Assembly: GCA_012862495.1 (NCBI GenBank)
Contig: BLSG01000235.1
Span: forward strand, 144,152-208,151
Direction of reading: 5' to 3'
Length of the DNA: 64,000 bases
Source: Thraustochytrium aureum
Taxonomy: Eukaryota
Shown here: positions 10,028 through 63,798 of the stretch, piece by piece
Layout: each line of letters starts with the position of its first letter
Numbering within the stretch: position 1 is the stretch's first letter
Notes under the pieces: generated by a model
The model's input: the letters and a program-made list of their open reading frames with translations, nothing else
The model's database searches: none
Told to the model about the DNA's origin: nothing
Program-made: the position numbers and the translations under genes

Positions 10028-10574
10028 CCTCCCAGCCCCGAGCGCGCCACACCGCCAAACCGCGACCGGCCGCAACCCCGCCCTCGCACAAGGGGAAAGA
10101 ATACCGCGTCTNNNNNNNNNNNNNNNNNNNNNNNNNNNNNNNNNNNNNNNNNNNNNNNNNNNNNNNNNNNNNNNNNNNNNNNNNNNNNNNNNNNNNNNNN
10201 NNNNNNNNNNNNNNNNNNNNNNNNNNNNNNNNNNNNNNNNNNNNNNNNNNNNNNNNNNNNNNNNNNNNNNNNNNNNNNNNNNNNNNNNNNNNNNNNNNNN
10301 NNNNNNNNNNNNNNNNNNNNNNNNNNNNNNNNNNNNNNNNNNNNNNNNNNNNNNNNNNNNNNNNNNNNNNNNNNNNNNNNNNNNNNNNNNNNNNNNNNNN
10401 NNNNNNNNNNNNNNNNNNNNNNNNNNNNNNNNNNNNNNNNNNNNNNNNNNNNNNNNNNNNNNNNNNNNNNNNNNNNNNNNNNNNNNNNNNNNNNNNNNNC
10501 CTCGTCGCATCGGTGCGGCCGGTTGCAGCAGGAGGCGGCTGAGCGCGCGTGGCACGGGATATCGGCGGGCTGCC

Positions 10575-10621
10575 GCTGGCGCGCGATCGCTGGCGCGCGA
10601 TCGCTGGCGCGCGATCGCTGG
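10575..10621. repeat. Perfect 14-bp tandem repeat (GCTGGCGCGCGATC) x3 plus a partial copy, immediately upstream of the ATG at 10629
   Basis: Copies at 10575-10588, 10589-10602 and 10603-10616, followed by GCTGG. Confidence 0.9.
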
Positions 10622-10628
10622 CTGGCGG

Positions 10629-12072: not shown

Positions 12073-12326
12073 ATGCGATGCAACAACTGATCTTGGGAAG
12101 AAAAAAAAAAAACGCAGGTTTGCTTGATCAGGACGTTTTGGAATGCCGGCCCGTCTGGGCTTGGTCTGAACGATCCAATCGCCTTTTACATTGTTTCATG
12201 TTGCACAGTTGGACGTGTGTGCGGCCTACAGACGTCCAATGGCGAGACAGTGAGTGCTTCCAATAGCCGCATCATCGACGTGCAAACGATACACAACGCA
12301 CCCAACTCCACCCATCTAATTAATAA

Positions 12327-17700: not shown

Positions 17701-20700
17701 CAGATGTGGTAAAGTAGTTGCCAAACCCAGTGGCGCCGATGCCATTGTAGGCCGCGACCCGCACGTAGTACGGCGTTCCAACTTGGAGCGGCGCGCAGTC
17801 GACGCCGGTCAGCGCTTGACGGACGGTGAACGAACCGATGTCAAATGCCCAGCGGAGCGGAACCTCGCTGACGACGCGAAGGTTGTCGTTGCCGTTAATC
17901 TCTTGCTCTGTGCTGCAAAACGGGAGCGCGCCGTCAATCGACTTGAAGGTATCGCTTGGGTCCCACTCGATGCGCAGCTTGGTGAGATTGGCGCCGCCGT
18001 CGCGCTCGGGCGAGGTAGTGATCACGCGCAGCGACGTGCCAGAGACGAGGGAAACGTCGACGCCGAACGGCGCGAGAGGGGCTTGATCCGCAGTCACAAT
18101 TGACGCTGGCGTCGAGATCTGCCAGTTCGTGTTCATTCCAAAGTACGGCGGCAACGCGAGCGGGTCGACTTGCTGAGCCGGCACAGCGTTTATTGCAGCA
18201 AGGCGCGCGTAGTAGGTTGTGCTCACGGAGAGGTCCGTCACGAACGCGGTGTACGGCGGGGCTCCAGTGATCGCGCTCTCCCCGACCGTAACTTGCCTTG
18301 GGCTGTTGTTAAAGTCGGCCGTCGTGTCCACTTCGACAACGTACCCGGTAATCAGAGAACCGCCGTCCGTGGCAGGCGGGTAGAACTCGAGAAGGAGGCT
18401 TGTGCTCGAAGCTGTGCTGAGATACACGCTCTGGGGCGCAGAGGGGAGCTGCATCGGCACAACCGTAAGGGAATCGGCGAACAAGCTTGGGCCCATCGCG
18501 TTGCGAGCCTGGACGCGCACGTAGTAGGTCGAGCCTGCCTGCAAGCTCGGGATGTAAAAGCAGTTGTTGCAGCCCACGTTGCGGCTTGCATCCTCGGCGT
18601 GCACAAAGGCCCGCCCACCCCGGATGCGGACTGTTGCCGACCCGGGCGCCAGCGAGTGTCGCGCAGCGACGATTGGCTTCGGCTTCGCTCCTCCAGCCGG
18701 GCGTAAGACATGGATACTGAATTCATAGCCAGCGATGCGCTTGTACACCGCCATGCCCGATTTGGTGGTCGATGTGATGATGGCAGCCGTCTTGTAATCC
18801 GCAACGGTGGCCAACGGGACCTGCGCTGCCGTGTACGTCCCAGAGTGCGCGACGCGGAAAGTCTCGCCGTTGACGTGAATTACGTCCCCCCGGCTAACGC
18901 CAGCGGCTTCCAAGCTCGCTGAGCTCGACAAAACCGCCTGTCCGTGGCTCGCGGACACAGACACGGACGAGATCCGCTCCAACGCGTAGTCCCGGGACAC
19001 GGCTACCGTGTCTAGCCCAGAAAGCGCCTCCAGCGCTGCCCTGACCTCGAACGCAGAAGCGTCGAACGCAAGGGGTGCGGTTTCCTCGCCGTCATAAACC
19101 AGGCTAAAGGTACCCGATAGCTGCTCCCCACCAACGGCAACGCGGATAGTCACGTCCACAGCATTTGACCCGCCGAGGCCGTTGGATGAGACGACAAGCG
19201 AAGGTACATCGCCGGCGACAGCAGCTCCGCTGAATGTTACCTGGAAAGTCATCCCGTGGCCGTCGGCTCCAGTGTGAGCCTCCATCGTCACCGTGACACC
19301 ACCTGGACCAATGTTTGTCAGACCCTCGAGGGCGGTCTGCAACGCAATGGCCCCTCCGTTGGGATCAATTGGGCTAGTGGCACCCCCTCCGTTGCTGGAC
19401 TCGAAGCACTGGGGGCAGTCAGCCACGTTAGTCGTATCGAAAGAGAGAGCGAAAGTCCCAGTGATATCTGGCGCCCCGACGCTGACGAGAGTCTGCGGAG
19501 CCGCTCCCCCAGAGGCGCAGGATGCTGAACCAGCGCAAGTGAAATCAACGCAACCATCGCCGAACCCGCCAAACTCGAGCTCATAGACACCGGCTGCGTC
19601 CGTAAACGTGATATCCCAAGCAAGCCCCAGCCCCGATACTGTTGGATCTGCAATGTGCGCAATCGCATTCAATTTGCTCGCATCAAATGCGAGCACAGCA
19701 TTTTCAATCGCCGTCTTGAGATCCGCGGAAGAAACGTCATGGGCGATGCATGTTGTCGGACGCCCATTGTACGTCAACCGAAACTCGCCGGATGCGATTG
19801 CCAAGGCCGAGTCAGCCACGACCAAGCGTTGGACCTTTGAAGGAGCAGTGATCACGATCTCCTGCACCTCGCGGAGTGGGACCGCCGAGACCGTTACGTG
19901 CTGCTCGCGGTAGAGCAGCTCCGCGGAGTCGAGAGTGTACCACTGCGCGTTGCCCGAGTCAAACCCGGCAGACGTGTCGACCTCCACGGTGTACGCGTCG
20001 ATTGCCTGCCCGCCGTCCAGGACTGGGGCGTTAAAGACGATGCCAGTCTTGGAACCTGTGGCCTCGTTGCCCTTCGTGACCTCTTGCACAATGGCGACCT
20101 TGCCCTCGCCAGTAAGCCCCGTCGCAGATGCAGACATGGACTCGAGGTCGCCGCCATTCATGGGGCTTGTAAAGGTCACAAGCCAGGAGCGCCCACGCTC
20201 TGAGTCGACGCTCTCTGCACTCGTTACTACCGCGCTTTTAACGGTGCTGAGCGACTCGACGGCCGTTTGGACCTCCGCAGCGGTTGCGTCATACGCGATT
20301 GCAGACGTAGTCGCGCCAAGATAGCTCAGCGTAAACGACCCGCCGAGCCAGTTGCCGCGCTGTGTCTCCACAATGGTGACTGCTGAGCCCGAACCCGTCA
20401 AGGAGTTCACCGCAGACATCATGCCGAGATCGCCAATGTCCGAGGTGAAGGTAACCCTCCACTCATAGGCACGCATTTGCTCGTCAACTAACGTGCGAGC
20501 AACATTGACCTTGTGCACACTACCGCCTCCGAGCCCTTCGAGCGCTGCTGCGACTTCCGAGGCTTCAGCGTTGAAGTTGAGGTTCGCTGTCGTCTCCCCG
20601 CCGAATGTGAGCGTGAAGAAGCCACCGAGCTCGTTGCCGTCCGAAATCGTCGCAGTCTCGCAACGGTTCGCGACGCCCAACCCGACAAAGTCAGCGTCGC

Positions 20701-23700
20701 CTGTGCAGCCAAGCTGCATCAAGTTTCCACCTTCGCCTTCAAAGGCCACCGTCCAGATGAACCCACCAGAGGTGTCCGCAAAGGACCGCTTCGTGTGTAC
20801 GGCACTGATGATCGGCAGCTTCTCAAGTTCCGCCTTGAGGCTCTCGGCGGTCATGTCGTGGTCTAGGTCATAGCCAGCCGTGTCCAGCACAGTCGCTTCC
20901 ACAACAAATGTAGCGCCACCGGTATGCCAGGCCTCGCAAGGCGTGGTGTCCGGTCCGTCGACAATGGTGAGTGCGGCAAACGTCACCTGGTCATCGTCGA
21001 AGACAATCGTCCAAGAATACCCGGCGTCTGCGTCGCTCCATGTCCGAACCACGTGAGCGGTTTGGCTTGTGATAGTCTGAACGACAGCTTTCACCTCGTC
21101 CGCGGTAGCGTCAAAGCTGATGCACGAGGATGCGGCAGCGCCACCGTATGACAGAGCAAATCCGCCGACAGTTGCCGTCGTAGATCCGGCAGTGCGATGT
21201 ACGCGCACGACACGTTTTTCCTGGGAGGTTGTCATTGTGTGCATGACGCCGTTTGCCTTACCGGTGAAGCTGAGCGAAAGCGCGCCTGTAGCGATTGGTG
21301 CGGCTAGCCCCGCCCCGGCGATCGTTCGAACTGTTTGCACCTCGTTGATCTTGGTGCAAGACGTAGTCACCGTCTGGATTTCATCGAGGTGCGTCGCAGC
21401 CACGGAGACCATTTGCACCTCATCCACGTGCAGCGCGACGTTGGCCGCAAGGGTGCGCGGGGCGGCAGGGACACCCCGCGCGCGCTCGACTGGGTTTTCG
21501 GTGCTGAATCCGCCAAGTCCAAGTTCGTTGCGCAGAGCGACGCGGAATGCGTAAGGGAGCCCGGGCTCAAGTCCAGTAACTGTGTACGCGTCTGGGAGAA
21601 CGCCGGGGAGGGCTTCGAAAACATCGACGGACCTGCTCGCGCCCTGCAAATGGGAAACATCGCCTGCGACGAGAGGAAGGTCACCTAGGTTGCTGTCGAA
21701 TTTCACGTTCCAGCGGTGTCCTGACACCTTGTAAGCGGCGAGACCCGTCTTGGTCCAGCCCGTGTACTGGGCTCGAGCAGTGGGGTTGCCCGAAACGACT
21801 TCGCCATTTGCGGCCCGCAAGACCTGGCCAAGGAACACCTTGTCGGCGTTTCCGTTGGTGATTGTCTCCACCAATACCGTCGCATCGTGCACACCAGCAA
21901 GGCCCGAGATATCCACGGCAAGCTCGGGGATGTCGCCATTGACCGAGGCGCCCACGAAGGTGACGCTCCAGGTCCAGCCTTCTTTCGTTTCGTCGCCAGA
22001 GACTTCGCGAGACACCTCTACGTTGTAGGCCCCAATGTTGGGAAGAGCATACAGACGCTCGAGTAGAGAGCTCTCGCCCTTCGCGAGATGCGGCATGATT
22101 GAACCGGTTGTGTACTGCGCCTTGACGGCGCACATCGCACAGTTCGTGGTGTCGAGCGTCACGGTCATGCCGGAGCCAAGACTATCCGCGCCGACCTTGT
22201 ACGCCACGCGGTTAGTGCTGCCGCAGTCGTCGGTGCCAAACATCAGCGGGGCGATGCCAGCATCTTGATCAAACGTGATCTCGTAGAGTACCTCGCCAGT
22301 CGAATTGGTCTGGGTGCGCTCGACCGACAGGACCGTAATCGATCCAGCGATTCCAGCAATAGCGCTTCCGACATCAGCTTCAAGCGCGTCCCAAGACAGG
22401 CAACCCGTTTCGCTGCCAGAGCTGCCCCACTTGAGCCTCAGTCCGGCATCTTGCGCATCCGAAACGCTCGCGACTTGGATCATGAACGACTGCGTCTTGC
22501 GCTCGCTTGCCAAAGTTATGCGTTGCACCTCCTTGCGAATCGGCCCGCTCATCTGCCCGTCATACTCTGCAATGACCGTTGCGAGCAATTCCGCACCGGT
22601 GAGCGGCGAGCCGCAGCCACTTGGCTCTAGCAACAGGTCTACGTTATCCTGGAGCAACGTCTCTCCAACAAAGTATACCGAAAAGACATACCCGGCCCCA
22701 GGATTGTCCTCGCTGAACTCGCGGCGCGTGACGACGAGTTCATCTCCAACAAGAGCCTCGAGCGCCGTCTCCATGTCTGCTTCCGAGACCGTCGACGCCA
22801 AGCAAGCTGTCTGTTGGCCCCCCTGCACAACCTTGAACTCGCCGCTCGGAAGCGTACCAGTGCCGTCCGGTGTCTTCAATGTCAGGGCTTGAACCTGCAC
22901 GCCGTCGTTGAGCACTGTAAAGGTTGGCGCAACCCAGTAGATGCGAGCTGCAGAGTTGTCCTCCCCAACAAACGCGCGATCGATCGTGAACTCGTTGGCG
23001 GCTTTGCCCTCGACAGACTGGGCCGCAACTGCAGCACTGGCCCCGTTACCCGACAAGGGAGTGCAACCGTCGTTCGCTGACGCGAGGTTGGGCACGTCGC
23101 CGTCGAATTGGTCGCCCACGAAGAATATCGAATAGGTGTACGCCGAGGCGCCCTCCTCGCGATGCACAATCAAGTCGCCTTCAGCAAGGTCTGCAAGGCT
23201 CTCCAGCGCGGCCTGAACGGCAGCAGCACTGGCGTCGAAGGGGAGGCAGGCGGTCTTCTCGTTCACGAATTGCAAACGATACTCCCCTGCGGTCGGGGGG
23301 CCAGCAAGCTCAACCGTCTGCACCTCGACTCCGTTGTCTACAACCTCGTAGACGTCGGCATCGATGCGAACGAAGTCGCCGTTCGCCAGATAAGGGCGCA
23401 GGTTGGCGCTTGTCTTGACCGTGGTCGCGCCCTTCACCACCGACGCGGTGCCTTGGGGAATCAGCACATCGCCTGTAACGCCAATGTCGGCAAGTCCATT
23501 CACCCCGAGGCCATTGGCGCCGCCGACTCTGATCAAGTCGCCCCGCGAGACGTAGTCGTGCAGGTTCACAGTTGACACAATGTGCCGCGCGAACATGTCG
23601 ATGGACACCATTCCTGGAAGTGGCTGCGCAAGTGCAAGGCTGCGATGAACAGAGACCTCGCCGATCGTCTCGATTCGTTCGAGCTGAGACTTGATGTCTG

Positions 23701-26700
23701 TGTCGCTGATATCATAAGAGAGAGCGTCAGTGGTGACACCATCGTACTCGAGCCGAAAGTGGCCCGACAGCGGCGCGCTACCGGGCACAACCTCGTCCAC
23801 TGCTACGCCCGCCGCGTCGCCACTCAGCGTCGTAGCGACCGCAGCGAGTGAGGACACGTCTCCTGAGCCGGGCGGCCACGACTCGCCCTCGAAAACGCCA
23901 GGGTTGCGTAGGAACGTAACTTGCCACCTGTAGCCGCCCAATTGACCGGGAGGCGACACTGCCACAGCGCCCCAGCCGCCCGACGTCGCTGAGGGGTACA
24001 CAGAACGCGTGACGCGAACATCCATCGAAGAGTGGATCTCGCTCAGCTTTCGAGCCATCTCGTCGGCGTCCTCAGCAAAGTCAACCTCGCGAACCATGTC
24101 GGCCGTGTCAGCGAGCCGCAGCGAAAACGATCCGCTCAGCCCCGTCGAGCCCTTCTGCACCTCGACAACATCCATGGCCTGGGCGGCCGATCCGGCGGTC
24201 TCAAACATGAAGACGGCGTCAGTCGAAATATCCGGATGGTCTCCCGCGCCGGGCGGAGTCTGTCCCGGGTTCTCCGTGAAGCGAATGGTCCAGTACCGTG
24301 CGCCATACTTGTTCCTTCGGGCGCTCACGACCTCTACGCGGTCCACCTCCGGCAAGGCCTCAAGGGCGCTGTCAACTTGAGCGGCACTCGCGTCCCAGGA
24401 AAGGGGCACAGTGTACAAAGAGCCGAGCGAGAGCTTGAAGGTACCACGGAGAATGTTGCCGCGGGTGGCTTCAACGGCCTGGGCGTGGCGGTTCGTTCCA
24501 AAAAGGGAGTTCCCGATGTTGACCTGAAGATCCGGGAGATCGCCTGCGCTCAGGCAAAGCTCGTCCGGGGCGCACGAGTCCTCCAAGAAAGTGATCGTCC
24601 AGGTGTACGCGCCGCTGCTCGTGTTGACACTGCTCCTGCTCACGTCAACATCACCAATATTGGCCATCGCTTCAAGGATTTCCTCTACGCTCTCGCCATC
24701 GCGCAAGGTGAGAGCGGCATTCGCGGCAGTGTCTGGGGCGTTGTGCTTGATGCTGCCCGAAGTAACAGACTGTTTGACGTACATAAAGTCCGACGACGAG
24801 GAGTCAAGCGTCACCGTAAAGAAGCCATTGAGCGGGATTGAGCCGGCTCGATCCTGGACCACATCGCATAAAGGCGTGGCGCTGTCGCTCTTAGCCCTCA
24901 GTGAGCCAGGATTGCAATAGAGAAGGGCGATGTCGCCCACGTTGCGGCCCCAGGCCGTGGAGTAGCCAGATCCCCACACGCTGTTGCCGTGGTCCGTGCC
25001 GTCATGAATCTCGCCATTGATGAAGGTGACTGTCCAGCTGTACGCCTCCGTCTGCATGCCTGCAGGGTCAGGCTGGCTTCGGTGGACGGTCACGGCGCCG
25101 ATCTCCGGATGCGCCTCAAGCGCGTTCTTGAGATTGACTTCGTCGATATTGTGGGCTAGTGCGCCTGTGCTCTCACCCATGTACTGGATTGTGAACGTGC
25201 CTGCGAGCTCGTTGCCAGTCTCGACCGTATCGATAGCATAGCGAGCGCCAGAGCCGGTGAGCTCGCTGCAGCTGCCCTCGTCATGCCATTCTAGTTCCTC
25301 GCCGCAGCCCCCGTCGCTGCAGGTGATTTGCGAGCAGACGGTATAGCTGAAACTGCTCGCAGGGAATCTCGGCTCCACAAACCGCACAATGTAGTCGTAC
25401 CCGAAGCCAGAGCTCAGTGTGCCGTCGCCCACGCGCTCAACCTGAACAGAGGAGATGCCGGAAAAATTCAGAAGCATGTTCTCGAAGGAGTCTTGCGCGA
25501 ATCCCCAAGCTACGCAAGGCGTTTCCTCACCTTCGAAGCCCACCTTAAACGTCCCCCCAGCGATGACTTTGTTCGCCTTGAGCGTCAGCCGTTGCACGCT
25601 CTTGCAGGTGTCAGGTACGTAGAGCTCGTTCACGTCGCCGCCAACTCCGTCGCCGCTGAACGTGACATCATAGGAGCGACCGCCTGCTTGGTCTGTTGCC
25701 GACTCGGTCACTACAACAGAGTCGATGTTGCTTAGCCCGTTCAGAGCGGACTGGACCGCGCTTGCGTCCGCGTCCCAAGCGATGAACCCCGTTTCTTGAA
25801 TGTCTGCGAGCGAGCCCTTCGTCCTGAATGCCAATTTGTACTGGCCGCCAAGTGTGTTGCCTTGCACGAGCTCCACCACATCGCAATTCGCGCTACGACT
25901 ACCACCGTCGTTTGTTTCAACAAGACCGGACGGGTCTACTTGCAGCAAAGCGACGTTTGACGGGGCTGAATCAAACCGAATGGTCCAGTTGTACCCGCCT
26001 GTCCAGCTGTCCAGATCGGCAAGGGGCCGGTAATCGGTCTTTTCGACTTGAAGGGTTCCAATATTGGGAATCGCCTCGAGCGCAGTCTTGACATGTTCAG
26101 CCGAGTCCGTCATGTCGATGGTGATCGGTCCCTCTCCGTTCCAACTCACGTCAATGGAGCCACTCAGAAAGTTCCCATCTTGGACTTCCTCAACCAAGCA
26201 CGAGACACCGTTGCCCGAGGAGTTGCCGTGGGTCGCTCGCACGTTGTGGAGCCCACTGTGCTGCTCGCAAGTCAGGAGGGGCATGCTCCCCGAGGTGCCA
26301 CTGAACGTGATCAAGTACTCGACGCCGTTCACACGGTCGTTGAGGCGAGTAGCACTGACCAACACCGGAGCCGCGATCGGATTCCGACCACCGGCGACCA
26401 TAGCAACGAGCTTCTCTGAAACGGAAGTCCCCAGTACGTCTGTGCTTAGTGCCCGGACCTCGATCGGCTCTGTCTCAGCTTCTCCGAGAACGATCGGCAT
26501 CGACGCCAAGGTGTCGTTGTACTTGAGCGTGTAGAAAGCGTCAGGGTCGATTTCGTTCCCTTGCTGCTCGGTGGTCGGAGTGGATGGGACGGTCGGCTCG
26601 TCGCCAGTCAGGGCATTAGAGGAGGTGATGGTAAGGAGCTCGTTTGGCATGTTGCCGTGCACCTTGTCCCCGTTGAAGGTGATACTCCACGTTTTGCCTT

Positions 26701-29700
26701 CGCCTGCCGTCCCGGTGTGGTCGGTCTCGGTTACGGTGACGTCCATGTTGGCAAGAGCGTTGAGCGCGGTTTGAAGCGCCCCAGGTACGGTGACGTCTAT
26801 TGCGGCAGTCGTCAGCGAGCTGGTAACGCGAGCCTCAGGATCGGACTCCCACCCTGTTTCGGAGCACAGAGTACACAGATTCGTGTCGGCAACAATCTGG
26901 AAGGTCCCGCCCAAGTTCGTTGTTTGGACAGCAACCAAGCCATCACAGGAAGCCCCGCTGCACTTGATCTCCTCGCACGCCTCGAAGCCACCAACAACTC
27001 CATCCCCGTTCGAGACGAGCGAGAGGTCATCGGGCCAGCTTGGTGACGTAAAGGCGATCGTATAGGTCGCCGAGCCGGCCGCTACAACGCCCTGCGAGAC
27101 AGCTACGTTGAGAGGGCTGCCGCCTTCGTCAACGAGGTTGTTCAGGATAGTCTCGTACGAGACCAAACTGCCCGACGCGTCAGCGTTCCAAGCGATGCAC
27201 CTGGAAACTTGCGAGGCGCCGCCAGCGCCGTATCGGAGGCGGAATCCGGCAGTTTTGCCGATATGCTGCTCATCAATGTCGTCAGACACCGCATCTCCGG
27301 TGACGCCCCCCGCGCCAACGACGAGTAGCGGGACGGCGCCCCGCACGGCTGAGCCGGAAAACGTGATGGCAAAGACCCTGCCTTCCCCGTTGCCGGACTC
27401 TGCCGCATTGTTCACAGTCACACCTCCAGGGCCGACGTTGCTCAGAGCTTCGAGCGCAGACGTCACTTCTGTCTCGATTGCGTTGACGGAAATTGCAGCC
27501 GTGGTTTGGTCAGCCCAAACCGCGCACAGCGGGCAGTTTCCTGTCGTGGTCACGAACTGCAGCGTGAAGTTGCCACCTAGGTTCTCCGAGTCGACGGTCA
27601 CCGATTCGCTCGAGCACTCGAGTCCGTTGCAGAGGAACGGGTCGCACCCCGTAACTGACGTATCAACCACCGGCTCTAGTGCCTCCGGGTTCTCGCTTGT
27701 GGAAGTCAAATCAAGCTCAAACTCGTAAGACATCACAGAGTGGGGTGTGAGATCGACCGTAGTTCCAGCGGTGATGTCCGTAATGCCGTTCGTCAGCGCG
27801 CTCGCAAAGGCAGCACCTGGCTCATCGAAGCGGATGCATCTGGTTGATTCAGCAGCGAGGGGCGCCGTCAGTTTGAAACCGCCATAGTTGCCTCGAAAGT
27901 CAGCCAAAACACTGGGGTCTCCGCTTCCACCAGTTAAGCTGAGGGTCATAGCCAGATCCGGGACACTGCCGTACTCGGGCGGAAACTGCACAGTCCACTT
28001 GATGTAGTCAGCCCCATTAGCTTCTCTTGTAACTGCCAGGTTGTCCTTGAACTCGGCAAAGTGCGGCGCAAGTCGGAGCTGTGCCTGAAAATCCGTCCCG
28101 TCGTCGCTGAGATCAATAGGCGCGGACGTCCATGAACCTGTGTTTTCGAGAAGCCCGCCGAAGCCGTCGAGGGCCGAGTTATCCAACGTCACTGTGAAGG
28201 TTCCTGCTAGAGCACCAACAGCCGCGTTAACAACTCTCACCCCCTGCACAGCTCGGACAGTAGAGAAGGCGCTGCCTGCGGTCACCATAACGGTCTGCGT
28301 CTTACGCGGCTCGCTAATCGTGATGACTTGAACAGCCTTGACGTCATCGATGTTGCCGCTGGCGGAGACCGTCACTGTCTGTGTCCTGCGTGGCTCACTG
28401 AGTTCTATGACTTGGATTTCGTCTTCTGCAGTCGCCGTAATGGTGAGCCGCTGGATCTCGCTCCGGTGGGTCGCAGAGGTATAGATCGCCTGAACCTCGT
28501 CAATGTCGGAGGCAGAAACGGTAATCTGCTGCACCTCAGAGACATCCTGTGTTGACGTGGAGATAACCTGGACTTCCGAAACCACCTGGTCGGCTGACGT
28601 CGTGATGGTCTGCACCTCGTCAACTCCAACGACATCAGAGGTGATGTTCTGGACCTCGTTGGTCACCTGAACGGTAGCGGTAATCTCTTGGACCTCATTC
28701 ACAACCACGGCACGCGTTGCCAAGACTTGCGACTCGTGCAAGATGGGCACCTCCGTACGCCCAAGGCTGGTCCCAGAGGTTGAGATCGTCTCGGCTACAG
28801 TGAACGCAGCGCACCCCTCGCGGTTGTCCGAAACGCCGAGCACGTGCCTTGGGGCAACAGGGTTGTGGAACTGTACATGCACAACATGAACGGTACCCGA
28901 GTTTGCCGCGTCTGCCGTGACGCTGACGTCGACAATGCTGGGAGCGAACTCTGTCTCGATGAACGTGGCGAAATCGGCGGGGCTGGCATCCCAGACCAAG
29001 CAGTTTTGAGATGTTGCGTCGCCAAACGTGAGCTTGTAGGAGCCGGTGCCACCCACAAGGGCAGAGCTTGCAGACACGGAAACGCTTTGAAGCGAATCGA
29101 ACTGCGTGCTTGGGTCCCACTCCACGACGAGCGACTCTAGCGAGCGCCCGCCGTCGCTGATGGGCAAGTCCCACGAAAGTGAAACGGCGGTAGAGGAAGC
29201 CACCGACGCCACAAGGTCGACAGGCCTCTGGGGCACGGTGTCGGCCGTCACGGCGCTGGCCGGCGTGGTCGGAAGCGGTGGGCCGTACCCCTCCGCGTTT
29301 CTAGCCGTGACGCGGACTTGGTACGTTTCGCCAGGAACGAGCGGCGAAGAGTACGCGCCGGTGAGGATGTTGCGCTCCCCGATCATGTACGAGGTTTCCG
29401 AGCCGTCCACCAGCGCGAACTGCGCGGAGGGAGGCGACCCAAAGTCGGTGTCCCACTCAACCAAGTAGCCTGTGATCGGCTTGCCGCCGTCGCCGCCAAA
29501 CACCGCGAGGTTGGGGTTGGGTGGGCGCCATGTCACCTCGAGCTGCACGCCGCTGACAGCACTCAGGGTCGCCGATTCCGGCGCGCTCGGAAGGAGGAAC
29601 TGCGGCGCGGCCGAGCGCGGCGCGGACGACCTAAATGAGCCCGGGCCGCGCGCGTTAACGGCGCGAACTCGAACAAAGTACGCGACGGACACGGACGTCG

Positions 29701-53700: not shown

Positions 53701-56700
53701 ATCCCAGTTGTGCAAGTGCGAGGTGAACGTAATTGACCAGGTGTGGCCGGTCGCAGCTGATTGCCTTGTGACGAGCACCTTGCGGCGAGTGCCCGCGACC
53801 TCGACGGCGACATCTTGCTCATACGAGTAGTCGGTATGGAGCTCTTCAAGCACTGCCTGCAGGGCCGAGGCAGAAATGTCTGCAGGGAGAGCCGCGGTTG
53901 AGCGGCCGTCCCACGTCAGGACGAGCAGACCCCCCACTGAGCCGCTCGAGCAGGACGTTACCATTTGAATTACAGCGGAGGAGGCGACAACTGTTTCGAC
54001 GTCCTCGGCGTCCCCCGCGCGGCGTAGCGAAACGACAAATGCGTCCGCTTGGCCGTTCAGGTCAACGTGCGCTCCGTTGCCGATCCGCGGATTCCCGAAC
54101 GCGTCGCGGGCATACACGGTCAGCTCTGCGAGACTGCCAGATGTTGTCGCTGTGAGGCCTGGGCCAGACGCCACGCTAGTCGGGGCGTGGAGCTCGGCGT
54201 GAACGCAGTTGACGGTGGACGAGGCGCTCCCCCCGTTCTGCAGGATCGGCTGCTGCCGGAACGTCGCAGAGACGGAGTAGGCCCCGACGCGCAAAAGCGT
54301 GTAGGTAACCGAGTACCTACCGTCGCCCTTGTCGTGCACGTTTGCAACGATCTCATGGCCGGCAACGGCGCCAGTCCCAACAAGTGCGACCTTGATGTCT
54401 GCCGCCTCGCCTCCGACCTGCCTGGGGTTCCCGAATGCGTCCTTTGCCTGGATCTCAAACGAGGACACGACGCCGGCGGTAGCCGTGCTGAGGCCCTGGC
54501 CGCTCGCGTCGGTTGTTTCGTGGGACGTCGGGCCTGGGCTGACTGACACGAGAAAGGGGGAGCACTTGCTGCTTGCTCCAAGTCCGCAGTAGATGTCGCT
54601 GCCGCCCTTGGTGCGAACGTGCACTTCGTAAGCCCCGCTGGCCATCGCCGTGTAAGAGCCGGCGTACCTGCCGGCGCCTTGGTAAGCCAGCGAAACGGTG
54701 AGCGACTCGGGCCCGGTCAGGAAAACCTCAAATGCGTCCGAACCGGACTCGTCCTCCGAGACGCGGTCGTTCCCAAGCGCATCCCTGCTTTGAATCTCGA
54801 TGTGGGCCTCAATGCCAGCTTGAACGCCCTCGGGCGAGACCCCGGTTCCCCACGCAGTCGAGTGAGGATAGTCAGCTGACCCGGGCGAGACAGTGACGGG
54901 GNNNNNNNNNNNNNNNNNNNNNNNNNNNNNNNNNNNNNNNNNNNNNNNNNNNNNNNNNNNNNNNNNNNNNNNNNNNNNNNNNNNNNNNNNNNNNNNNNNN
55001 NNNNNNNNNNNNNNNNNNNNNNNNNNNNNNNNNNNNNNNNNNNNNNNNNNNNNNNNNNNNNNNNNNNNNNNNNNNNNNNNNNNNNNNNNNNNNNNNNNNN
55101 NNNNNNNNNNNGAGCTGCTTGGCCAGAGAGCTCTCGAAACTCAAGCTTGATGTCGTGAAACGCCCCGGCGCGCAGCGCGACGTCCGCAGCGCGATACTCA
55201 ACCGGAGACCCGTCGGCTGCGTCGTTGGCCTCGGCGTCCGCCCAAGCGTCGATGACGAGGACGTGGTCGATCCAGAGCCGAGCACCATCCAATACTGTCA
55301 AGAAAAATGTGAAGTTCTCCGTGCTTGGCCCGCGGAGCTTGCCCTGCCAGCGCGCCGAAACAAAGTCACGCCCGAAGGGAGTGATGGCACCGTCTGCCCA
55401 CGAAAAGTCGATGAGCGGGTCCACGCGCGAGAGACTCGGCGAGCCAGCGAGCCACTGGTTGTCAAAGTAGTCGCCGAGCAGGCCGCCTTTGGACAACTGC
55501 CGCACCGCGAGCGAATATGACCCGACCGCAGCAGGCGTGTAGGTCCCAAGGTAAGAAGGCAGGCCAGCAACGATCTCCTCAACCGCGAGCTCTGGGATTT
55601 CGCCAGTGAGCGCTTGAGCGCTGCCGTCCTGAACCTCGACAACCGTCGCAGCCGCTTGAGAGCCCTCCAGGCCGGAGGCATCCACAACAATTGGCTCGAG
55701 GTCGCCGATCGTGTTGCGGAAGGTGACCCGCCACTCGAACCGGCCAAAGCCGGCACCAGAGAGCGGACCCTCGCGGCTAACCGAGACGAGGCCGACAACC
55801 GTCGGGAGGGCCTCAAGCGCGGCCTTGACCTGCGCAGCGGAGCTGTCATGGGCAAGTGCCGGCGTCTCCTCCCCTCGAAAGCTCAAGGTGAACGTGCCGG
55901 AGAGCGGGGTGGGAGCACCACCTGTGGTTTCGATCGCCTGGATCTCGTGGCGAACGGGGTGGGCAGTTAGCATGCCAAGGTTACCCAGATTTCGCAGAAA
56001 GGTGATTGTCCAGCGAAAGCCGGCGACGAGCTCCTCACGATGAACGCTCACCGAGTTCACGGTTGAGAGAGACTCGAGGAGGACCTGCATTTCCTTGGCG
56101 CTCGCGTCATAGTCGATGCTGTCGGTGTATTCGCCCTCGAACTCAATCACGAAGGACCCAGCTAGCGGGGCCACGCCCTTGGCGATCTCTTCGACTTCGG
56201 TGCAGCCGGTGCAGCTCAGGGACGATTCGTCTTCGACAACAAGGGGGGGGACGTCGCCAACGGGGTCGACGAACGTGACCACCCACGACCCTGCAGATCC
56301 GGAGACCGATACAGACACAATTGTCGCCAGACTCTCAAGGTTCGCTTTGACGGTGTTTGCGTCTGCGTCATGGGCGATAGCGACTGGGTCGGAGCCGCCA
56401 AAGGAGAGCAAAAAGTTCCCCGTGCCCCGGTGGGAATGTTGATCGTCTGCTCCTCGGCCGAGAAGGGCGCTGCAGCGGAAACAGTGACGGTTTGCACCTC
56501 GGCAACACCACTCTGGAGTTTGGTGACGTAGACGCCAGCACCAGTTCCGACGAGGGTGTGGACTGTTGCACCGGCCGTGGTGAGAGGCGGCAGGTCGCCA
56601 AAGTCTCCCTTAAACGTAACGTCCCATTGCATCTTGCCGTTGCCGAGAGGCGTCCGCTCGACGTCGACGGCCTCGACGTTCGACAACGCCTCAAGAGCGT

Positions 56701-59700
56701 CCTTCACCTCGACAGCAGACGCGTCGTACGCAATTGCCACAGTTTCCTGAGAAGACCCGCTCTGTGCCGCGTAGCTCGAGGTGTCAAAGAGGAGCGAGAA
56801 AGATCCTCCAGTAATGTCCCCAGAGCTCGTGTCGGTGAAAACCCTCTGCACATCGTAGCGCGCCGGAACATACGTGGCAACCCCACCGTCGACGGCCCAC
56901 TCGTGAGTGCCGTCCACAATGCTCGCGTCTGTCGTCCAGAGCTCGCTAAAGAAGAGATCTCCACCCTCAAACCCGGGGAGAGCGCTGACGTCGCGGACAG
57001 GCGCGCCAGACTGTTTCTTGGGCTCGATCGTGAATTGGTTTGCAAAGCCTTTGACGTGCTCGGAAACATGAACAGTGACGGTGAGCGCGTCGACGGGCAC
57101 GACTTGCAGGAGATCCACGTCGCCACGCAGACCCGTGAAGGTCACGGTGAAGACGAAGCCATTGCGCGAGCCGCCGTCATTTACAGCAGTTTTGGTCACG
57201 TGCACGCCTCCAATTACGTTGCCCGATGCGTCTTTCTTGCCTGAGAGAGCCTCGGCGAACGCGGCGGCGCTCACGCTGACGGGGTCAATGACATCAGACA
57301 GCTCTGCGCTGGCGCCACCGACGCGCAGCTGGAAACTGTTTGCAGCCCAGGAGGAAGTTGCAGTTGGGCTCAGAACCTCCACAAGCTGCTCCTCGAACAC
57401 GACACCAGCCGTTCCTTTGGATAGCGCTGAGCCAGACGCAGTTGTGGCATGCGCGGCGGCGCCAGCGCGCGCTACAACGGTCGGAGTGGCCAAGGAGGCA
57501 AGCCCCTCGCCCACGGCACTCAGCGCGGTGACCTTAAAGGCGTAGGTATTGTCGGCGACGAGACCGCGTGAGGTGAACTCTTTCAGCGAAGGCTGGTCGA
57601 ATCCGTCGTACACCAGCTTAGCCGGTGTCCCTGGCTGGGTCTCCGCAACAGCGACCCGCGCGTTGTTGTTATCGTTCGCGCCCGGCACGTAGTCGTGGCG
57701 GACGCCGTACAGCCGCCCCCACGTAGCGCGCATGAGCGGCAGGTCGCCAACATTGGTGTGAAAGGTCACGTCCCAGCGCTGTCCAGGCCGCGCTCCAGCA
57801 ACCGCCACTCGCGAGACGCTGACGGAGCCGATCGTGGGCAGCGACTCGAGAGCGCGCTGCATCTCGAAGGCAGAGCAGTCCACAGGGAGCGGGCGCGTCT
57901 CCGCGCCAAGAAATTGGATCGTGAAGTCGCCGGCAATCGGCGCGATTCCTTTCTCGACCTCCGACACCCCTGCATTGGGCGAAGTCCCGGTGAGACTAGC
58001 AATGTCAACGACGAGTTCTTCGACATCGCCCGCGACTGCGTTGAAGGTGATCGTCCACGAGAACGACGTGCCGCCCCCCGAACGCGTCACGCTGACCCCG
58101 GAGCCCGCGTCTGCGGCCATCGTAGTACTAGCGAGGCTCTCGAGGGCGGCTTTGACGACGGCATCCGCAGCATCAAACGCAATCGGCGCGGTCTGCTCCC
58201 CCTCAATCGCGAGCCTGAACGAGCCGCCACTCGCGCCAGTGATAGAAACGAGCTGGACTTCCGCGACGGGGCTATCAGCTGTGAGCGAGATCGACTGGAC
58301 CTCCTCTTTGACCGGCTCAGGTACCGAGACGGTGTTGGGCGGGACCGCGTCGAAGCGATACACGCGGTACCCGGTTGCAGGAGACCCNNNNNNNNNNNNN
58401 NNNNNNNNNNNNNNNNNNNNNNNNNNNNNNNNNNNNNNNNNNNNNNNNNNNNNNNNNNNNNNNNNNNNNNNNNNNNNNNNNNNNNNNNNNNNNNNNNNNN
58501 NNNNNNNNNNNNNNNNNNNNNNNNNNNTGGAGCGCCTGGATTTGAGGCCGTGAGAACGCCAAACATGGGCGAGCGCTGTGAGAGCCCAACGCTGTTGAGG
58601 GCCCGGACGTAAAACCGATAGGGACGACCTTCGTTGAGACCTGCAGCTGTGTGCGAGAGCGAACCAGCAACGGCACGGCGAACATTGACAACTGGGTGAA
58701 CCGCCGCGTCGGTGCAGACTAGGCCGGCGGCGTCGGCCGTGAAGAGCGGCACAAGATCGAGCCCTCGCGGTACGAGGCCGTTTGCAAAGACGATTGTCCA
58801 GCGACGGCCCTCGGAAGTCGGACGGGTCTCGACTTGAAATGTCACGGGACCACCTTCAGCGGCGGCGAAGGCACTGTCTAAAGCCGCCTTCATCTCGTCG
58901 TCGGACGCATCGAAGTCAATCGGGCCGGAAACGAGCTTGGCAGCCTCAATGCCGTTCGGCCCACTCGAGAAGGCGAGGTCGCCGTCAAGAAACTCCAGAG
59001 TAAATGTGCCGCTTGCCACAGAGTCTCCCGCGCAGCCGACCTCGACAACCTGCACAGCGGGGTCGCCCGAGCCAGAGTGCGTCTTTTCAACGAGCGCAGC
59101 GCCACTAGATAGCGCCCCAAGCTCCAACGCGAGCAGGTCCAGCTCGCCGTGCAGAGTGAGGAACGTAACGTCGTATGTAAAGACGCCCGAGCCAACGTCT
59201 GTGCTTGAGACCTTGACAGTGCCGAGGGACGGGATGGCCTCCAGCGCCGTGGCGAGCGTTTCTGCGGTGGGCAGCGAGTTGCTAGAATCGACAGCAAAGG
59301 TGGGTGAGGCAGTCCCTTGGTAGCTGATGGCCAGGTCGCCCACGGCGTTATTGAGGGTAATTCTTTGCACATCGAGCTGCCCAAACGGCCCCGAAGCAAA
59401 CGTGTCGGTGCCGTCGCCTCCGTCGCGGTAGATTTCGTATCCCACAATGCGGCTCCCGCCGTTATCTCGGGGAGCGTGCCAAAACACCGCTGCCTGCGCG
59501 TCGCCAGCAGCTGCCGTGCCGGTGTGCGTGTTGGATGAGTCCTTGACGGGTTGCCCTGGTGCGGCAGGCACTGACGGCGACGCACGAGCAACAAAGGTGG
59601 ACTCCTCCGAGAACGCCCCGAAGCCGACCGCGTTGATGGCGCGAACCTTGAACTTGTACTTGCGACCTGGTACAAGCGCCCGCTTGCTTGCAGTGTCGAA

Positions 59701-62700
59701 TGCAGTGATCCTCTCGTGGCCGGTTCCATCGTAGACGAGCTGAAAGTCCCCCGCGGCCCACTCGTCCATCCACAGCTCGTAGCCGGTGACCGGCGAGCCG
59801 CCCGACTCGGTCGGGTGCTGCCAGGCCACAATGAGCGAGGAGGCCGTGGAACCGCGGAGGACCGGGGCCTTTGGGGTCCCGGGTCTCCCGTGCGCAGGTT
59901 GTGCAAACTTGGGGGAGGTCGCAGCAAACGCCCCGTAGGAGCAGCAACCCGGACAGGTCGACTGGCACGCTGTGCGAGCCGACACGCGGACAAAGTACGT
60001 CTCCTCCAGCGTGAGGTCCAAAATGTCGAAAACGTACGGGGCGCCGCTGGACAGATCCGTGATCTCGGCAGACCCGTAGCCTGCTGAGCCAGCCCCGCCG
60101 GTTCCTTTCTGCGTCTCGGTAATCTGAAACCTGGCTGGTTCGGTCGCATATCCGCCCGTCAAGCTGTCGCTCACGCCGATCAGCGGCTTTACGTCGCCGA
60201 TGTTGCAGACCGCGTTGCCCGAGCTCTGGCTGGCCCCGCAAGACGAGAACGTAATAGTCCAGGCCACGAACGCGCCCGAGAGGGCATCCTCGTGGCGCGA
60301 GACGAGAACCTTTCCGACTGCGTCTAGCTTCTCGAGCTCAGACTTGAGCCGCTCGGCCGAAGCAGTGGCAGGAATTTCTGCGGTCTGGTGGACCACGCCG
60401 AGGTGGTCCTCAAACTCGAGGCGAAAGGACCCTCCAAGGGGCTCAGAGCCGCTCTGCGTTGTGCTGGCTGTGACGGACGCGGTTTGACCCGCGCCAGTGG
60501 CAGACATGTACGAGTCGTCGACCTCCAGCTCTCCGAGGTCATACGACGCAAACGGGAACGCCCCTGGGTTGGAGAGGAACGTGATCGTCCATGAGAATGC
60601 GCGTCCCGGGGCCAGCGGGCCGGACCGGGCTACACGCACAGTGCCAACATTGGGCAGAGCCTCGAGAGCGGCTTTGACCGCAGAGTCTTCCGCATTGTAC
60701 TGGATCGGCTCAGTGGCGTGTCCGCGAAGCGAGAGCCGGAACGAGCCCTGTGCCGACCCGCCGCGAGCGCTCCCCGCTGCTGCGCAGTCGAGACTTTGCT
60801 GGTTCTCGTCCGTGCAAACCACGACGCGCGCTCCGTTGCCCCGAAGCGACAAAACGTTAGCAGCCTGGATGGCCGGCTGGTCACCGTCAAGGGCATCAGT
60901 GGCGAACGTGACCTGCCACTCTCGCATGCCCACGGTTTGCGTGACGGCGACACCGCCCGCACCGATCGAGGGAAGAGCGTTCAGGGCCCCCGCCACGGTG
61001 CTCGCGTCGGCGTCGACGCTTAGATCTGCGGTGACGTGGCCGCCAAACCCGAGCTTGAAAACGCCGGTGACGCCGGCCGCGCCATCCTGCGAAGTGGAGA
61101 TGGCAACAATCTTGTTGCCCTGGAGAGCCGCAACATCGGCGGTCAGCTCGGGCACATCTCCAGAATAGTTGGGGACAGCGTTGAATAGAATCTGCACCCG
61201 TTCGGGCGGCACCGCGCCAACCGCGTCGAAAGGCCGGCATGCTGTCGACTGCGGCACGCCCGTAGCAGTTGATACAGTGACTGTTACGTCGGTGACTGTG
61301 CCGAGATCTTCGAGTGCCTGCTCCACCTCGAGCATGGTGGCGTCGTGCGCAATCGGGCCGGTCGTCGCGCCGTCAAAGGTGAGGCGGAACCAGCCGCCAG
61401 TAGCATCGCACTCAAAGGTCTGTGTCTCAGAGGTTGAAGCCACCACGCCGGCTGGAAGCACTCGAATCACTTGGACCTCGTCGACATCACCGGAGACCGT
61501 CGTCGTGACGACTTGGGTCTCCTCGCGGAAAGGCACTGTGAGGGTGACAAGCTGAATCTCAGGGACAAGCTCGACCGTGTCCCACTCGACGCGAAACGAC
61601 TCGAGGGCGCCACCGCCAATTCGCGCGGGGGCGTCCATCGCAACTCGCAGCGTTGAGCCGTCGACCACAGTTAGCGTCGCCCCCTCCGGAGCAGAGGGGG
61701 GGAGGTGGTACGGCTCGAGTTGCGGCGGAGCCGACACCTGGTGCAGCCCCTCGCCACTGTCGTTGGTTGCGCTGACAGCAACGTAGTAGGCGACGCCCTG
61801 GTCGAGTCCTGCGATCTCGTACGAGAGCGAGGACATGTCGGTGACAATGGCCGAGTTGGCCACGTCAGCGAAAGCGGGCGCAGCGCCCTTGGTCAGCTCG
61901 GTGACCGCGCTAGTTGAGGCGGCCATGGTGCCAGTGAGGGCGCGCGCATCCAGCTCGAGAGCGGGGAGGTCGCCGTTTCCAGTAGGGCCCATTAGCTCGG
62001 TGAGGAAAGTCACAGACCATTCGTACCCACCGTTCTGGTCTGGGGCGCTGCGCGTGACGTCGACTTCGCCGACCGTGATCAGCGCCTGGATGGCGTCCTT
62101 AACTTGCTGCGCCGAGGCAGCCGCGCTGAGGTACCCCGTCCACTGACCCTCGTAGGAGAGAGCGAAATGTCCGTCAAGCGTTTCAGACGTCCCAGCTGTG
62201 ACGGTTGCGACCGCGACCGAGCCGTCCGACACCGAGCTCGATGCGACAAGAAGCATGCCCGTCAGGTTTCCAGCGTTTGAGTCGAAAGTGAGATGAAGCG
62301 TGCACGCGCCCGTTGGCACAGCCGTTGAAGTGACAGCCACGGAGAGCGGGCCGACGGTGGCCAGGCCTTCGAGCTGGGTCTCAACCTGCGAGGCCAGCTG
62401 ATCGCAGTCTCCTGCGTGGTTGGCCGTAATCGGGTCGGTCGTGGCGGCACCAAACGAGAGCTGGAATGCCCCAGCAATCGCTGTCCCGCCGCTTGCCGTC
62501 GTCGCGAGCTCAAACACGTGCTGGACCGTGCCCTTGTGCACCTCGGCAACAGAAACGGTTGCATCTGTGCCAGTGAGGCTGTGCGTGGCGACGTCGAACG
62601 CGCCAATATCGCCTGTCGCTGAAACAAAAGTGACCAACCACGTGCGCCCGAGGTTGCGGTCCGGCCCGGTCGCTAGGCGGACTTGCACGTCGCCAAGCGG

Positions 62701-63798
62701 AGCCAGCTTGCTCTTCAAGAGCTCTGCAGACGCGTCGAAAGGGATTCCTGTCGCGCGCTGTCCGCCAAGCTCGACCTCAAAGGTGCCCCCGATCTGGTTG
62801 CCTCGGACCGAAGAAACGCCATCGCAAGGCGGCGTCGAGCTACCCGCCGTGCAGACGGTGGCGCGAGCTCCAGCTCCGGTCAGAAGCGTGTCGTCGGCGA
62901 CCAGATCATCGAGCGCTCCGGCATTCTGGTCGGAGACAAAGGTGACAGTCCAGGCGAACCCGTTTTCGCCATCTGGCGCGCTCCTGACCACGTCGACGTT
63001 GCCAACGGTCGGGAGGGCCTCGAGGGCGCTCTTGACCTCGGCTTCGGTTGCGTCATAGTCGAGCGGGGCGGTTTCCGAGCCGCCGAAAGCGAGTGTAAAC
63101 CTGCCCCCGATCTCGTTGCCCTGGACCAGGGTTGCGGTCTGCACGATCGCGCCAGTGCCAATGAGCTCATTGGTGCCCTGGGTCATTTGCGGCAAGTCGC
63201 CGTCCATGTCGTCAAAGGTGATGGTCCACGTCAGGGCGCCGCCGGGGCCAGCGGTCCGCGTCACCGTCACCGTTCCATCGACGTTGGGCATTGCTTCAAG
63301 GATCTCCTGCATGGATGTGCGCGAGTTGCTGCTATCCGCGGCGGTCGCAACTGCGTTGTACATAATATATCCAGACGTGTGGATGCTACCGCCCTGCGCG
63401 GTCGTGTCCAGGGTCACGGTGAACCAGCCGCCGTCCACGGAGGGTGCACCAGACACTGCGATCGTTTGCACTTCGCGCACCTGCGTGGCAGTGGTGCGGA
63501 TCACCTGGACTTCATCGACGTGCGTGGCAGAGGTCGTGATGGCCTGCACCTCGTTCGGGCCCAAGAATACGTCTGTCTTGACAACCTGCACCTCGCGAGT
63601 GCCAGGCTCCGTGTCCCACTTGACCGTGTAGCTCGTCACCTCGCTCCCTCCGTCGCTGAGCGGCGGCGCCCACGACACGGCGAGCGCCTCGCCCGAGACT
63701 CGTTCGAGAGCAACGTCCGTGGGCCGCCCTGGCGCGGCCGCAGCGGCCACGGCCAGGACGGCCGCCACCACGACGAGCCACAGCGCCATCATCATCAT
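14726..63798 (-). CDS. Giant secreted multidomain protein (~16,000 aa): signal peptide, ~37 FN3, ~8 filamin-type Ig, 3 PA14, ~80 nested 'EVQ' modules and ~11 beta-rich insert modules
   Basis: ORFs 58087..63798, 56216..58363, 54717..56411, 53029..54645, 50657..53098, 48574..51804, 39914..48901, 32713..40374, 29655..33059 and 14726..29692 tile the minus strand. Coding sequence runs up to both edges of all seven gaps and several domains continue across them. Frame changes in sequenced DNA occur only at ~56427, ~53132, ~51540 and ~51433, each repaired by adding one base. There is a single signal peptide and a single terminal stop (...VQLEVRAT*). Confidence 0.85.
28228..28738 (-). repeat. Protein-level tandem array of 13 'E(V/I)Q' beta-strand motifs with ~13-aa period
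   Basis: HESQ, NEVQ, NEVQ, DEVQ, SEVQ, SEVQ, DEVQ, SEIQ, DEIQ, RRTQ, KAVQ, RKTQ, RAVQ, each followed by an alternating strand pattern. The array is diverged at DNA level. Confidence 0.9.
47730..57475 (-). other. Central block of ~8 filamin/ABP280-type Ig repeats with three PA14 domains (about 55120-55490, 51340-51785 and 47790-48205)
   Basis: Filamin motifs S.A.G.GL..ATAG...F.IQ.KDAFGN, DKGDGRYSVTY and IEGSPF. PA14 motifs GLLG.YF.N, RVD..(I/V)DF.W, DF.SARW.G, ARLW(I/V)D and H.(I/V)KLEFRE. Confidence 0.85.
63733..63798 (-). other. Signal peptide of the giant protein, beginning with four consecutive ATG codons
   Basis: (ATG)4 at 63787-63798 gives MMMMALWLVVVAAVLAVAAAAA, followed directly by the first FN3 (PGRPTDVALERVSGEALAVSW). 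Confidence 0.85.

What the first reader, a model, noticed from the sequence alone, without database searches (positions are those of the whole stretch)
18900..63600. The 'N strands then N bodies' rule recurs throughout, with last-in-first-out pairing of subtypes
Seen: 4 strands with 4 bodies at ~63597-63450 (REVQ, NEVQ, DEVQ, REVQ) and at ~61563-61407 (PEIQ, EETQ, DEVQ, SETQ). 3 with 3 at ~21426-21325 and ~19909-19815. 2 with 2 at ~58300, ~56480, ~53390, ~40550, ~31010 and ~22530. Subtype matching supports the stack order. Wherever an EVQ strand is followed by a (K/R)TQ or KVQ strand, the first body is the 'C(I/L).(W/H/F)(D/N)' type and the next is the 'DT..CxxC' type (22530, 19860, and twice within the 13-stack). 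At ~40550 both the strand order (QQQ then DEVQ) and the body order are reversed. Inference: the protein follows a bracket-like nesting grammar and has many side branches of different lengths.
Basis: partly seen in the sequence, partly recalled or inferred. Interest (0 to 1): 0.85.

Follow-up and report, generated by a model that had tools for sequence, protein, structure and literature searches.

The report
Russian-doll stalks in a giant protein
A roughly 16,350-residue, likely secreted protein of stramenopiles (water moulds, brown algae and kin) writes 80 copies of a phage-tail-like domain as matched brackets, up to 13 deep, so that the chain is predicted to run out and fold back into rigid side stalks, a building plan our literature searches did not find described.

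Summary
The finding holds. One minus-strand gene (63798-14726) encodes a signal-peptide protein of about 16,350 aa. It has FN3, filamin and PA14 domains and 80 copies of a Pfam-less domain, each split into a first strand (EVQ) and a body. The curated parse balances 80/80, with 11 stacks and depth 13. Last-in-first-out pairing is supported three ways. (1) Orthologues with 9-strand stacks lack strands 10-13 and bodies 1-4. (2) In orthologues with one domain at block Q, strand 1 directly precedes body 3. (3) An AlphaFold model of one 4-stack (pLDDT 91) assembles strand+body 4+1, 3+2, 2+3 and 1+4. One statistical test was inconclusive. The domain matches the C-terminal-extension-like domain of mycobacteriophage Bxb1 (Z 13.1), whose tail-tip protein also looks nested, three deep, at another loop. 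The protein is likely an extracellular branched scaffold. A Saprolegnia orthologue peaks in cysts (PMC5771568). The function is untested. An unchecked note of this scan reports similar nesting with an unrelated domain in a viral penton (e1-8334639).

The parts
14726..63798 (-). Single giant gene, about 16,350 codons read through 7 N gaps and 3 frameshift sites
   Evidence: The frameshifts at about 56423, 53128 and 51431-51546 are absent from independent contigs. Gaps at 54902, 39999 and 29735 are bridged by 91, 30 and 122 letters, each in frame by my arithmetic. Two gaps are joined with length unknown; two (58388, 50681) are untested.
63733..63798 (-). Predicted signal peptide; no other membrane-like segment
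   Evidence: Only strongly hydrophobic 19-mer, KD 2.63; the next is 1.64. No signal-peptide predictor was run.
61702..63732 (-). Block A: FN3 domain split around a 4-level stalk plus one side domain (62523-62184)
   Evidence: Model pLDDT 74.9, pTM 0.39. The FN3 closes over residues 1-670, Z 12.7, rmsd 1.9, 92 aligned. Strand 4 + body 1 match 9d93_Jb, Z 11.0.
60091..61575 (-). Block B: 4-level stalk inserted in a second FN3
   Evidence: Model pLDDT 91.0, pTM 0.72. Its four domains are LIFO pairs.
57628..58309 (-). 2-level stack in an FN3
55610..56506 (-). 2-level stack, with a third domain inserted in the tail of the outer body
55122..55490 (-). PA14 domain (a second at about 48205-47804; a likely third near 51880-51340, seen by eye)
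   Evidence: Pfam PF07691 E 1e-18 and 7e-19
49117..54900 (-). Filamin-repeat region carrying inserted domains
   Evidence: Pfam PF00630
52669..53403 (-). 2-level stack
39880..40558 (-). 2-level stack with reversed subtype order (CxxC body, then CI body)
30122..31025 (-). 2-level stack, inner body carrying a small beta insert
28255..28745 (-). Run of 13 first strands, mostly 13 residues apart
21592..28210 (-). 13 bodies of the deep stalk, plus side domains at 25603, 23329, 22900 and the 2-stack at 22534
20041..21427 (-). 3-level stack with one domain nested inside its first body
18640..19915 (-). Block Q: 3-level stack in an FN3; one level only in 14 orthologues
14729..18600 (-). C-terminal FN3 run with three single inserted domains

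Best explanation
This is one giant, likely secreted stramenopile protein whose FN3/filamin backbone carries 80 copies of a small alpha/beta domain, many inserted into the turn after the first strand of the previous copy, so that each stack is predicted to fold as a hairpin stalk, and the whole molecule likely serves as a branched extracellular scaffold on motile or encysting cells. Shown: the single gene, the balanced order, and the LIFO register in orthologues. Modelled: LIFO assembly of one 4-stack and closure of a split FN3. Inferred: the domain's two ends lie together, so it can be spliced into a loop at the far end of the next copy. The strands run outward as one extended chain. At about 13 residues per level (about 4.3 nm, from standard beta-strand geometry), the 13-stack would be about 55 nm and the 9-stack of oomycetes about 38 nm. 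The bodies return and each clasps its strand. Folding would zip from tip to base, and the outermost strand would wait about 1,650 residues for its body. Stalk length evolves by inserting or deleting balanced cassettes at the tip. Tips and PA14 domains likely bind glycans or partner molecules. Odds: architecture about 0.93; role as a surface or matrix scaffold about 0.6; role in zoospore or cyst adhesion in particular about 0.4.
For: Orthologue indels at the deep stack (23 orthologues examined). In 14 with 9 strands, the match to window body 5 is the first body. It is second in P0025 (10 strands) and probably P0061, and fifth in P0054 (13 strands). That is rank N-8, as LIFO predicts. Window bodies 9, 10 and 12 keep their order. 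Block Q: 14 of 25 true orthologues have one domain, in which a strand directly precedes the homologue of body 3; in 10 of the 14, by eye, it is of the window's strand-1 type (LLY..Q). C56 in strand 4 and C113 in body 1 of block B are both at least 90% conserved in 28 sequences. In the block B model, solved single domains align to residues 48-168, 31-257, 18-375 and 3-492. By my count of ranges, 46 of 50 rows are LIFO, 0 FIFO and 4 other. Stacked strands are spaced 11-17 residues, median 13. For the role: P0064 is Saprolegnia SPRG_03974, listed as secreted, with expression 0.03 in mycelium and 16.44 in cysts (PMC5771568 Table 1, passage). P0054 comes from a transcriptome assembly.
Against: A predictor of strand from body, trained on un-nested domains, favoured LIFO in 30 of 36 automatic stacks, but these are mostly orthologues of one block. 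It favoured LIFO in only 13 of 20 once the innermost pair was removed, and in 5 of 10 curated window stacks. Six of 23 orthologues were truncated or too diverged at the tip to read. Sixteen strands and 2 bodies were added by eye. Two N gaps were not tested, so one continuous frame is not proven end to end. The functional link is expression data from one orthologue fragment. [quoted passage not shown]
Confidence: 0.7

Rival explanations
1. Same nested architecture, but the protein is a part of the tripartite flagellar hairs (mastigonemes) or their anchoring, with stalks acting as lateral filaments or rulers.
For: Named homologues come from lineages with flagellated stages (from general knowledge): Phytophthora, Aphanomyces, Albugo, Saprolegnia, Discosporangium, Cantina. 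Strand spacing and block order are conserved across them. Saprolegnia expression rises at sporulation.
Against: The supplements of the oomycete flagellar-gene paper PMC3471859 hold no 'fibronectin', 'titin' or 'filamin' (3 files searched); this is weak. Expression peaks in cysts; zoospores are not in that table. There is no EGF hit in the window protein; EGF-like repeats in known mastigoneme proteins are recalled, not checked.
Confidence: 0.2
2. The strands are not used in cis but complete bodies of other molecules (donor-strand polymer), giving a cross-linked mesh.
For: Donor-strand complementation is an established way to build extracellular filaments (general knowledge; PMC12518558 seen as a search listing only). 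Strands of different levels are alike, so swapping is conceivable.
Against: Exact balance within each insert, joint gain and loss of strand and body, and a confident single-chain model all fit cis pairing.
Confidence: 0.05
3. Strands pair first-in-first-out or promiscuously, and the counts merely balance.
For: The strand-from-body predictor preferred FIFO in 5 of 10 window stacks.
Against: 0 of 50 structural alignments show a FIFO range. Under FIFO, an insertion at the tip would re-pair every domain of the stack. Linkers are too short to return from the last strand to the first in a 13-stack (inference).
Confidence: 0.03

Closest known systems
Mycobacteriophage Bxb1 CTE-like domain: tail tip cage gp23, capsid and tail-tube extensions (PDB 9D93, 9D9W, 9D9X, 9D94); phage Patience gp22 (8GIU)
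   Same: Profile hit to gp23 at E 7.9e-39. Fold match Z 13.1, rmsd 2.1, 103 aligned, 35% identity. gp23 shows three N-terminal halves followed by C-terminal halves, and phage Timshel gp27 reads as 3 then 3, so nesting occurs there too. [quoted passage not shown]
   Different: The phage proteins split after the helix and third strand and nest three deep. Here the split follows the first strand and nests up to 13 deep, with branches, in a eukaryotic protein of about 16,350 aa. The Bxb1 paper was not held, so I do not know whether it describes the nesting.
Saprolegnia parasitica SPRG_03974 and other oomycete 'titin-like' or FN3 giants (Albugo CCA13958.1)
   Same: Orthologous: SPRG_03974 maps to window-protein residues about 9,200-13,700 and carries the 9-strand stack.
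   Different: Annotated only as FN3 or titin-like and often as separate fragments. The passages read mention neither the repeat domain nor nesting.
Flagellar cap FliD, flagellin outer domains and phage sheath inserted domains
   Same: Weak fold likeness, Z 5-6.5. They are also built by domain insertion (recalled).
   Different: The Z values lie in the common range. These carry a few different domains rather than recursive copies of one.
Earlier scan note e1-8334639 (11 nested domains in a giant-virus penton)
   Same: The same strands-then-bodies plan, as noted there.
   Different: An unrelated domain, one spike, viral; an unchecked AI note.

Membership tests
Bxb1 CTE-like domain | Sequence homology to the solved domain | tested here: met
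   E 7.9e-39 to 9d93_Ma and 3.2e-5 to 9d9w_Aa; PHROG 10909 hit by 14 of 22 copies
Bxb1 CTE-like domain | Same fold, first strand included | tested here: met
   Three levels of the block B model match at Z 10.4-13.1; this rests on a predicted model
Bxb1 CTE-like domain | Self-association that decorates a virion (recalled) | not testable with these tools
   Recalled feature; source paper not held
Fibronectin type III | Pfam PF00041 and seven-strand sandwich | tested here: met
   the split FN3 closes in the model, Z 12.7
Titin (the label given to orthologues) | Intracellular protein with I-set Ig domains and a kinase | tested here: not met
   No I-set or kinase hit in 10 segments; N-terminal hydrophobic leader
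Donor-strand pilins | Strand donated to another subunit | tested here: inconclusive
   The single-chain model completes all four domains in cis; swapping between chains was not tested
Known stramenopile mastigoneme proteins (Ocm/Sig/PnMas, recalled) | EGF-like repeats (recalled) | tested here: not met
   No EGF family
Known stramenopile mastigoneme proteins (Ocm/Sig/PnMas, recalled) | Located on flagellar hairs | not testable with these tools
   Needs microscopy or proteomics

The most novel reading that the evidence does not exclude
Stramenopiles share an ancient tree-shaped protein of about 1.7 MDa, built from a domain also used on phage tails and capsids. A push-down folding grammar encodes stalks of programmable length up to about 55 nm, and the protein is the unidentified backbone of a stramenopile surface structure (cyst coat or hairs, or flagellar hairs). 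The same grammar builds trees with branches on branches in other giant proteins such as P0052.
Probability: 0.4. Interest if true: 0.9.

Novelty: new variant of a known kind. Interest (0 to 1): 0.76.

Why it matters
Domain insertion is usually one or two levels deep (general knowledge). Thirteen recursive levels with branches, conserved across a eukaryotic supergroup, would be an extreme case. It makes long-range, delayed strand completion during folding directly testable, and it offers a natural module for rods of set length. It also reinterprets a widespread family filed as 'titin-like' or FN3, and it points to a domain with no Pfam or NCBIfam model in my scans although it hits 16,708 clusters at 50% identity. 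Profile tools miss split domains, so such proteins are likely under-reported.

Tried and rejected
No whole genome is held for this window, so the organism and its paralogues were not determined; it is placed among stramenopiles by homologues only. No run on record as RNA was listed; X2 and X3 are only guessed to be RNA. A three-copy complex prediction of the tip domain of block A gave no answer. The strand-from-body predictor was inconclusive. A scan of prokaryote genomes with the domain alignment could not be run, because the alignment has no stretch conserved enough. The small beta insert inside some bodies gave only weak Atlas leads (0.88-0.91) and no PHROG hit; of the three queries, one spanned an N gap and is uninformative. 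Literature searches found no description of the nesting: nested domain/FN3/giant protein, stramenopile/giant/fibronectin/filamin/PA14 (26), Russian doll/matryoshka terms (56, no papers), oomycete/titin-like (79), mastigoneme and nested/domain insertion (122). The library lacks most subscription papers and the Bxb1 paper; bioRxiv supplements are closed. PMC12221091 has no mention of fibronectin, filamin, PA14 or titin in its main text (supplements not read). PMC7409359 (passages) names Phytophthora FN3 genes that I could not link to this family. Pseudogene: rejected, since the frameshifts are absent from independent contigs. Titin: rejected.

Full report
The gene. The minus strand from 63798 to 14726 reads as one protein of 16,352 positions when 7 N gaps and 3 frameshift sites are bridged with X. 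The frameshifts lie in homopolymer runs. Contigs from other runs carry the missing or extra bases at 56423, 53128 and 51431-51546, so these are assembly errors. Three gaps are bridged by 91, 30 and 122 letters, each keeping the frame by my arithmetic. Two more are joined with length unknown, and two were not tested. The protein starts with its only strongly hydrophobic stretch. Pfam finds FN3, filamin and PA14 and nothing for the repeat itself. Named homologues are from Phytophthora, Aphanomyces, Nothophytophthora, Discosporangium, Aureococcus, Albugo, Saprolegnia and Cantina. The window is therefore likely from a stramenopile; the species was not determined.

The observation. A body HMM and a strand matrix trained on homologues recover 78 bodies and 64 strands of 8 bits or more; the shuffle expectation is 2.6 peaks, and 2 further peaks were judged false. 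With 16 strands and 2 bodies added by eye, the count is 80 and 80. Of the pairs, 52 are adjacent and 28 nested; depth reaches 13 and the longest span is 1,656 residues. All 23 segments between FN3 halves balance, against 3.3 (maximum 11) in shuffles. Because that curation was not blind, I also parsed 193 proteins automatically. Of 320 FN3 inserts, 184 are equal, 289 within one and 13 have a strand excess; 111 of 114 equal inserts with two or more domains are proper bracket words, against 35 expected. These proteins include many orthologues, so the inserts are not independent.

LIFO or FIFO. Subtype matching in 2-stacks cannot decide. Across 39 stacked strands, LIFO gives the better strand/body similarity correlation (0.23 against -0.02; random 0.11+-0.06; p=0.026). 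Orthologues are more telling. Of 23 examined, 14 have nine strands that align one to one with window strands 1-9, and their first body matches window body 5. P0025 (ten strands) and probably P0061 have that body second, and P0054 (thirteen) has it fifth; six were unreadable. Growth thus occurs as a balanced block at the strand/body junction, which preserves all other pairs only under LIFO. At block Q, the anchor picked 34 proteins, of which I dropped 9 as non-orthologous. Of the 25 left, 14 have a single domain in which one strand directly precedes the homologue of body 3, and in 10 of these the strand is of the window's strand-1 type. In block B, one cysteine in strand 4 and one in body 1 are both at least 90% conserved. 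Against this, a predictor trained on un-nested domains was inconclusive: 30 of 36, then 13 of 20 without the innermost pair, and 5 of 10 window stacks.

Structure. The block A model (9 sequences, pLDDT 74.9, pTM 0.39) closes the split FN3 around a loop of about 580 residues and pairs strand 4 with body 1. The block B insert model (28 sequences, pLDDT 91.0, pTM 0.72) was aligned to 48,161 solved chains. The ranges fall at about 48-168, 31-257, 18-375 and 3-492; 46 of 50 rows fit LIFO, none FIFO, four neither. Bxb1 and Patience single domains fit three of the levels at Z 10.4-13.1. The outermost level is matched only by weak hits (Z about 5).

The domain. A profile of 22 un-nested copies hits the Bxb1 tail-tip protein gp23 (E 7.9e-39), capsid and tail tube. 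One copy finds 236 Mycobacterium and Gordonia phage records, and the profile finds 16,708 clusters at 50% identity. Atlas neighbours include diatom and actinobacterial clusters. A preprint calls the Bxb1 modules 'CTE-like domains' (PMC13252515, passages). In gp23 and in Timshel gp27, three N-halves precede the C-halves: the same domain nests in phages, at another loop. That later site is where the window's copies often take a small beta insert or whole side domains (seen).

How it most likely works. Each copy brings its two ends together and offers a turn at the opposite end, so copies can be spliced inside one another. A stack then becomes a hairpin: strands out, bodies back. With a median of 13 residues per level, conserved across orthologues, the rise would be about 4.3 nm, and the deep stalk about 55 nm. 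Folding would zip from the tip. The FN3/filamin chain would form a backbone bearing stalks of 1 to 13 levels. These steps are inferred. For the role, the Saprolegnia orthologue fragment SPRG_03974 is listed as secreted and cyst-enriched and was proposed, without proof, as a component of the hair bundles or adhesive matrix (PMC5771568, abstract and passages). I favour an extracellular scaffold (0.6) over a flagellar-hair part (0.2).

Novelty and verdict. Domain insertion is known, the domain's fold is solved, and three-level nesting appears in a solved phage protein. Deep, branched, first-strand nesting in a conserved eukaryotic giant protein was not found in my searches, which miss most subscription papers, the Bxb1 paper and bioRxiv supplements. 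An unchecked scan note reports the same plan with another domain. Verdict: real, LIFO nesting well supported, function untested; a new variant of a known kind; interest 0.76.

Noticed in passing
P0052 (7,591 aa, JGI/IMG): A different giant protein with no FN3 half detected, built largely from this domain: a run of about 14 strands 13 residues apart, whose bodies are interrupted by further stacks of 2-6, a tree with branches on branches.
   Followed up: partly
L001:343-2322 (phage Timshel gp27): Three nested copies of the domain, split after the third strand rather than the first.
   Followed up: partly
window 38982-38782, 30809-30550, 23630-23340, 18985-18780 and similar: A recurring small all-beta insert inside bodies, sometimes doubled and itself carrying side domains; weak Atlas leads to phage proteins only.
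   Followed up: partly
PMC5771568 Table 1: SPRG_05384 (6,547 aa) and SPRG_19863 (9,440 aa) are also cyst-enriched FN3 giants; they may be further pieces or paralogues of this gene. Sequences not seen.
   Followed up: no
P0096 (CAM6003542.1) and P0202: Homologues labelled Sphagnum balticum and Symbiodinium sp. KB8; contamination of those assemblies is possible and was not checked.
   Followed up: no
window 6145-8805 (+): Gene that looks by eye like a SUN-domain nuclear-envelope protein (motif recalled, no scan run).
   Followed up: no
window 10670-12072 (+) and 2-1243 (+): By eye, an EF-hand/ankyrin/FN3 protein spread over two frames, and a beta-propeller C-terminus; not scanned.
   Followed up: no
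ESM Atlas rows 21 and 23; P0038, P0051: The domain also seems to occur with EGF repeats in oomycete proteins (Atlas scores 0.83 and 0.79, leads only).
   Followed up: no
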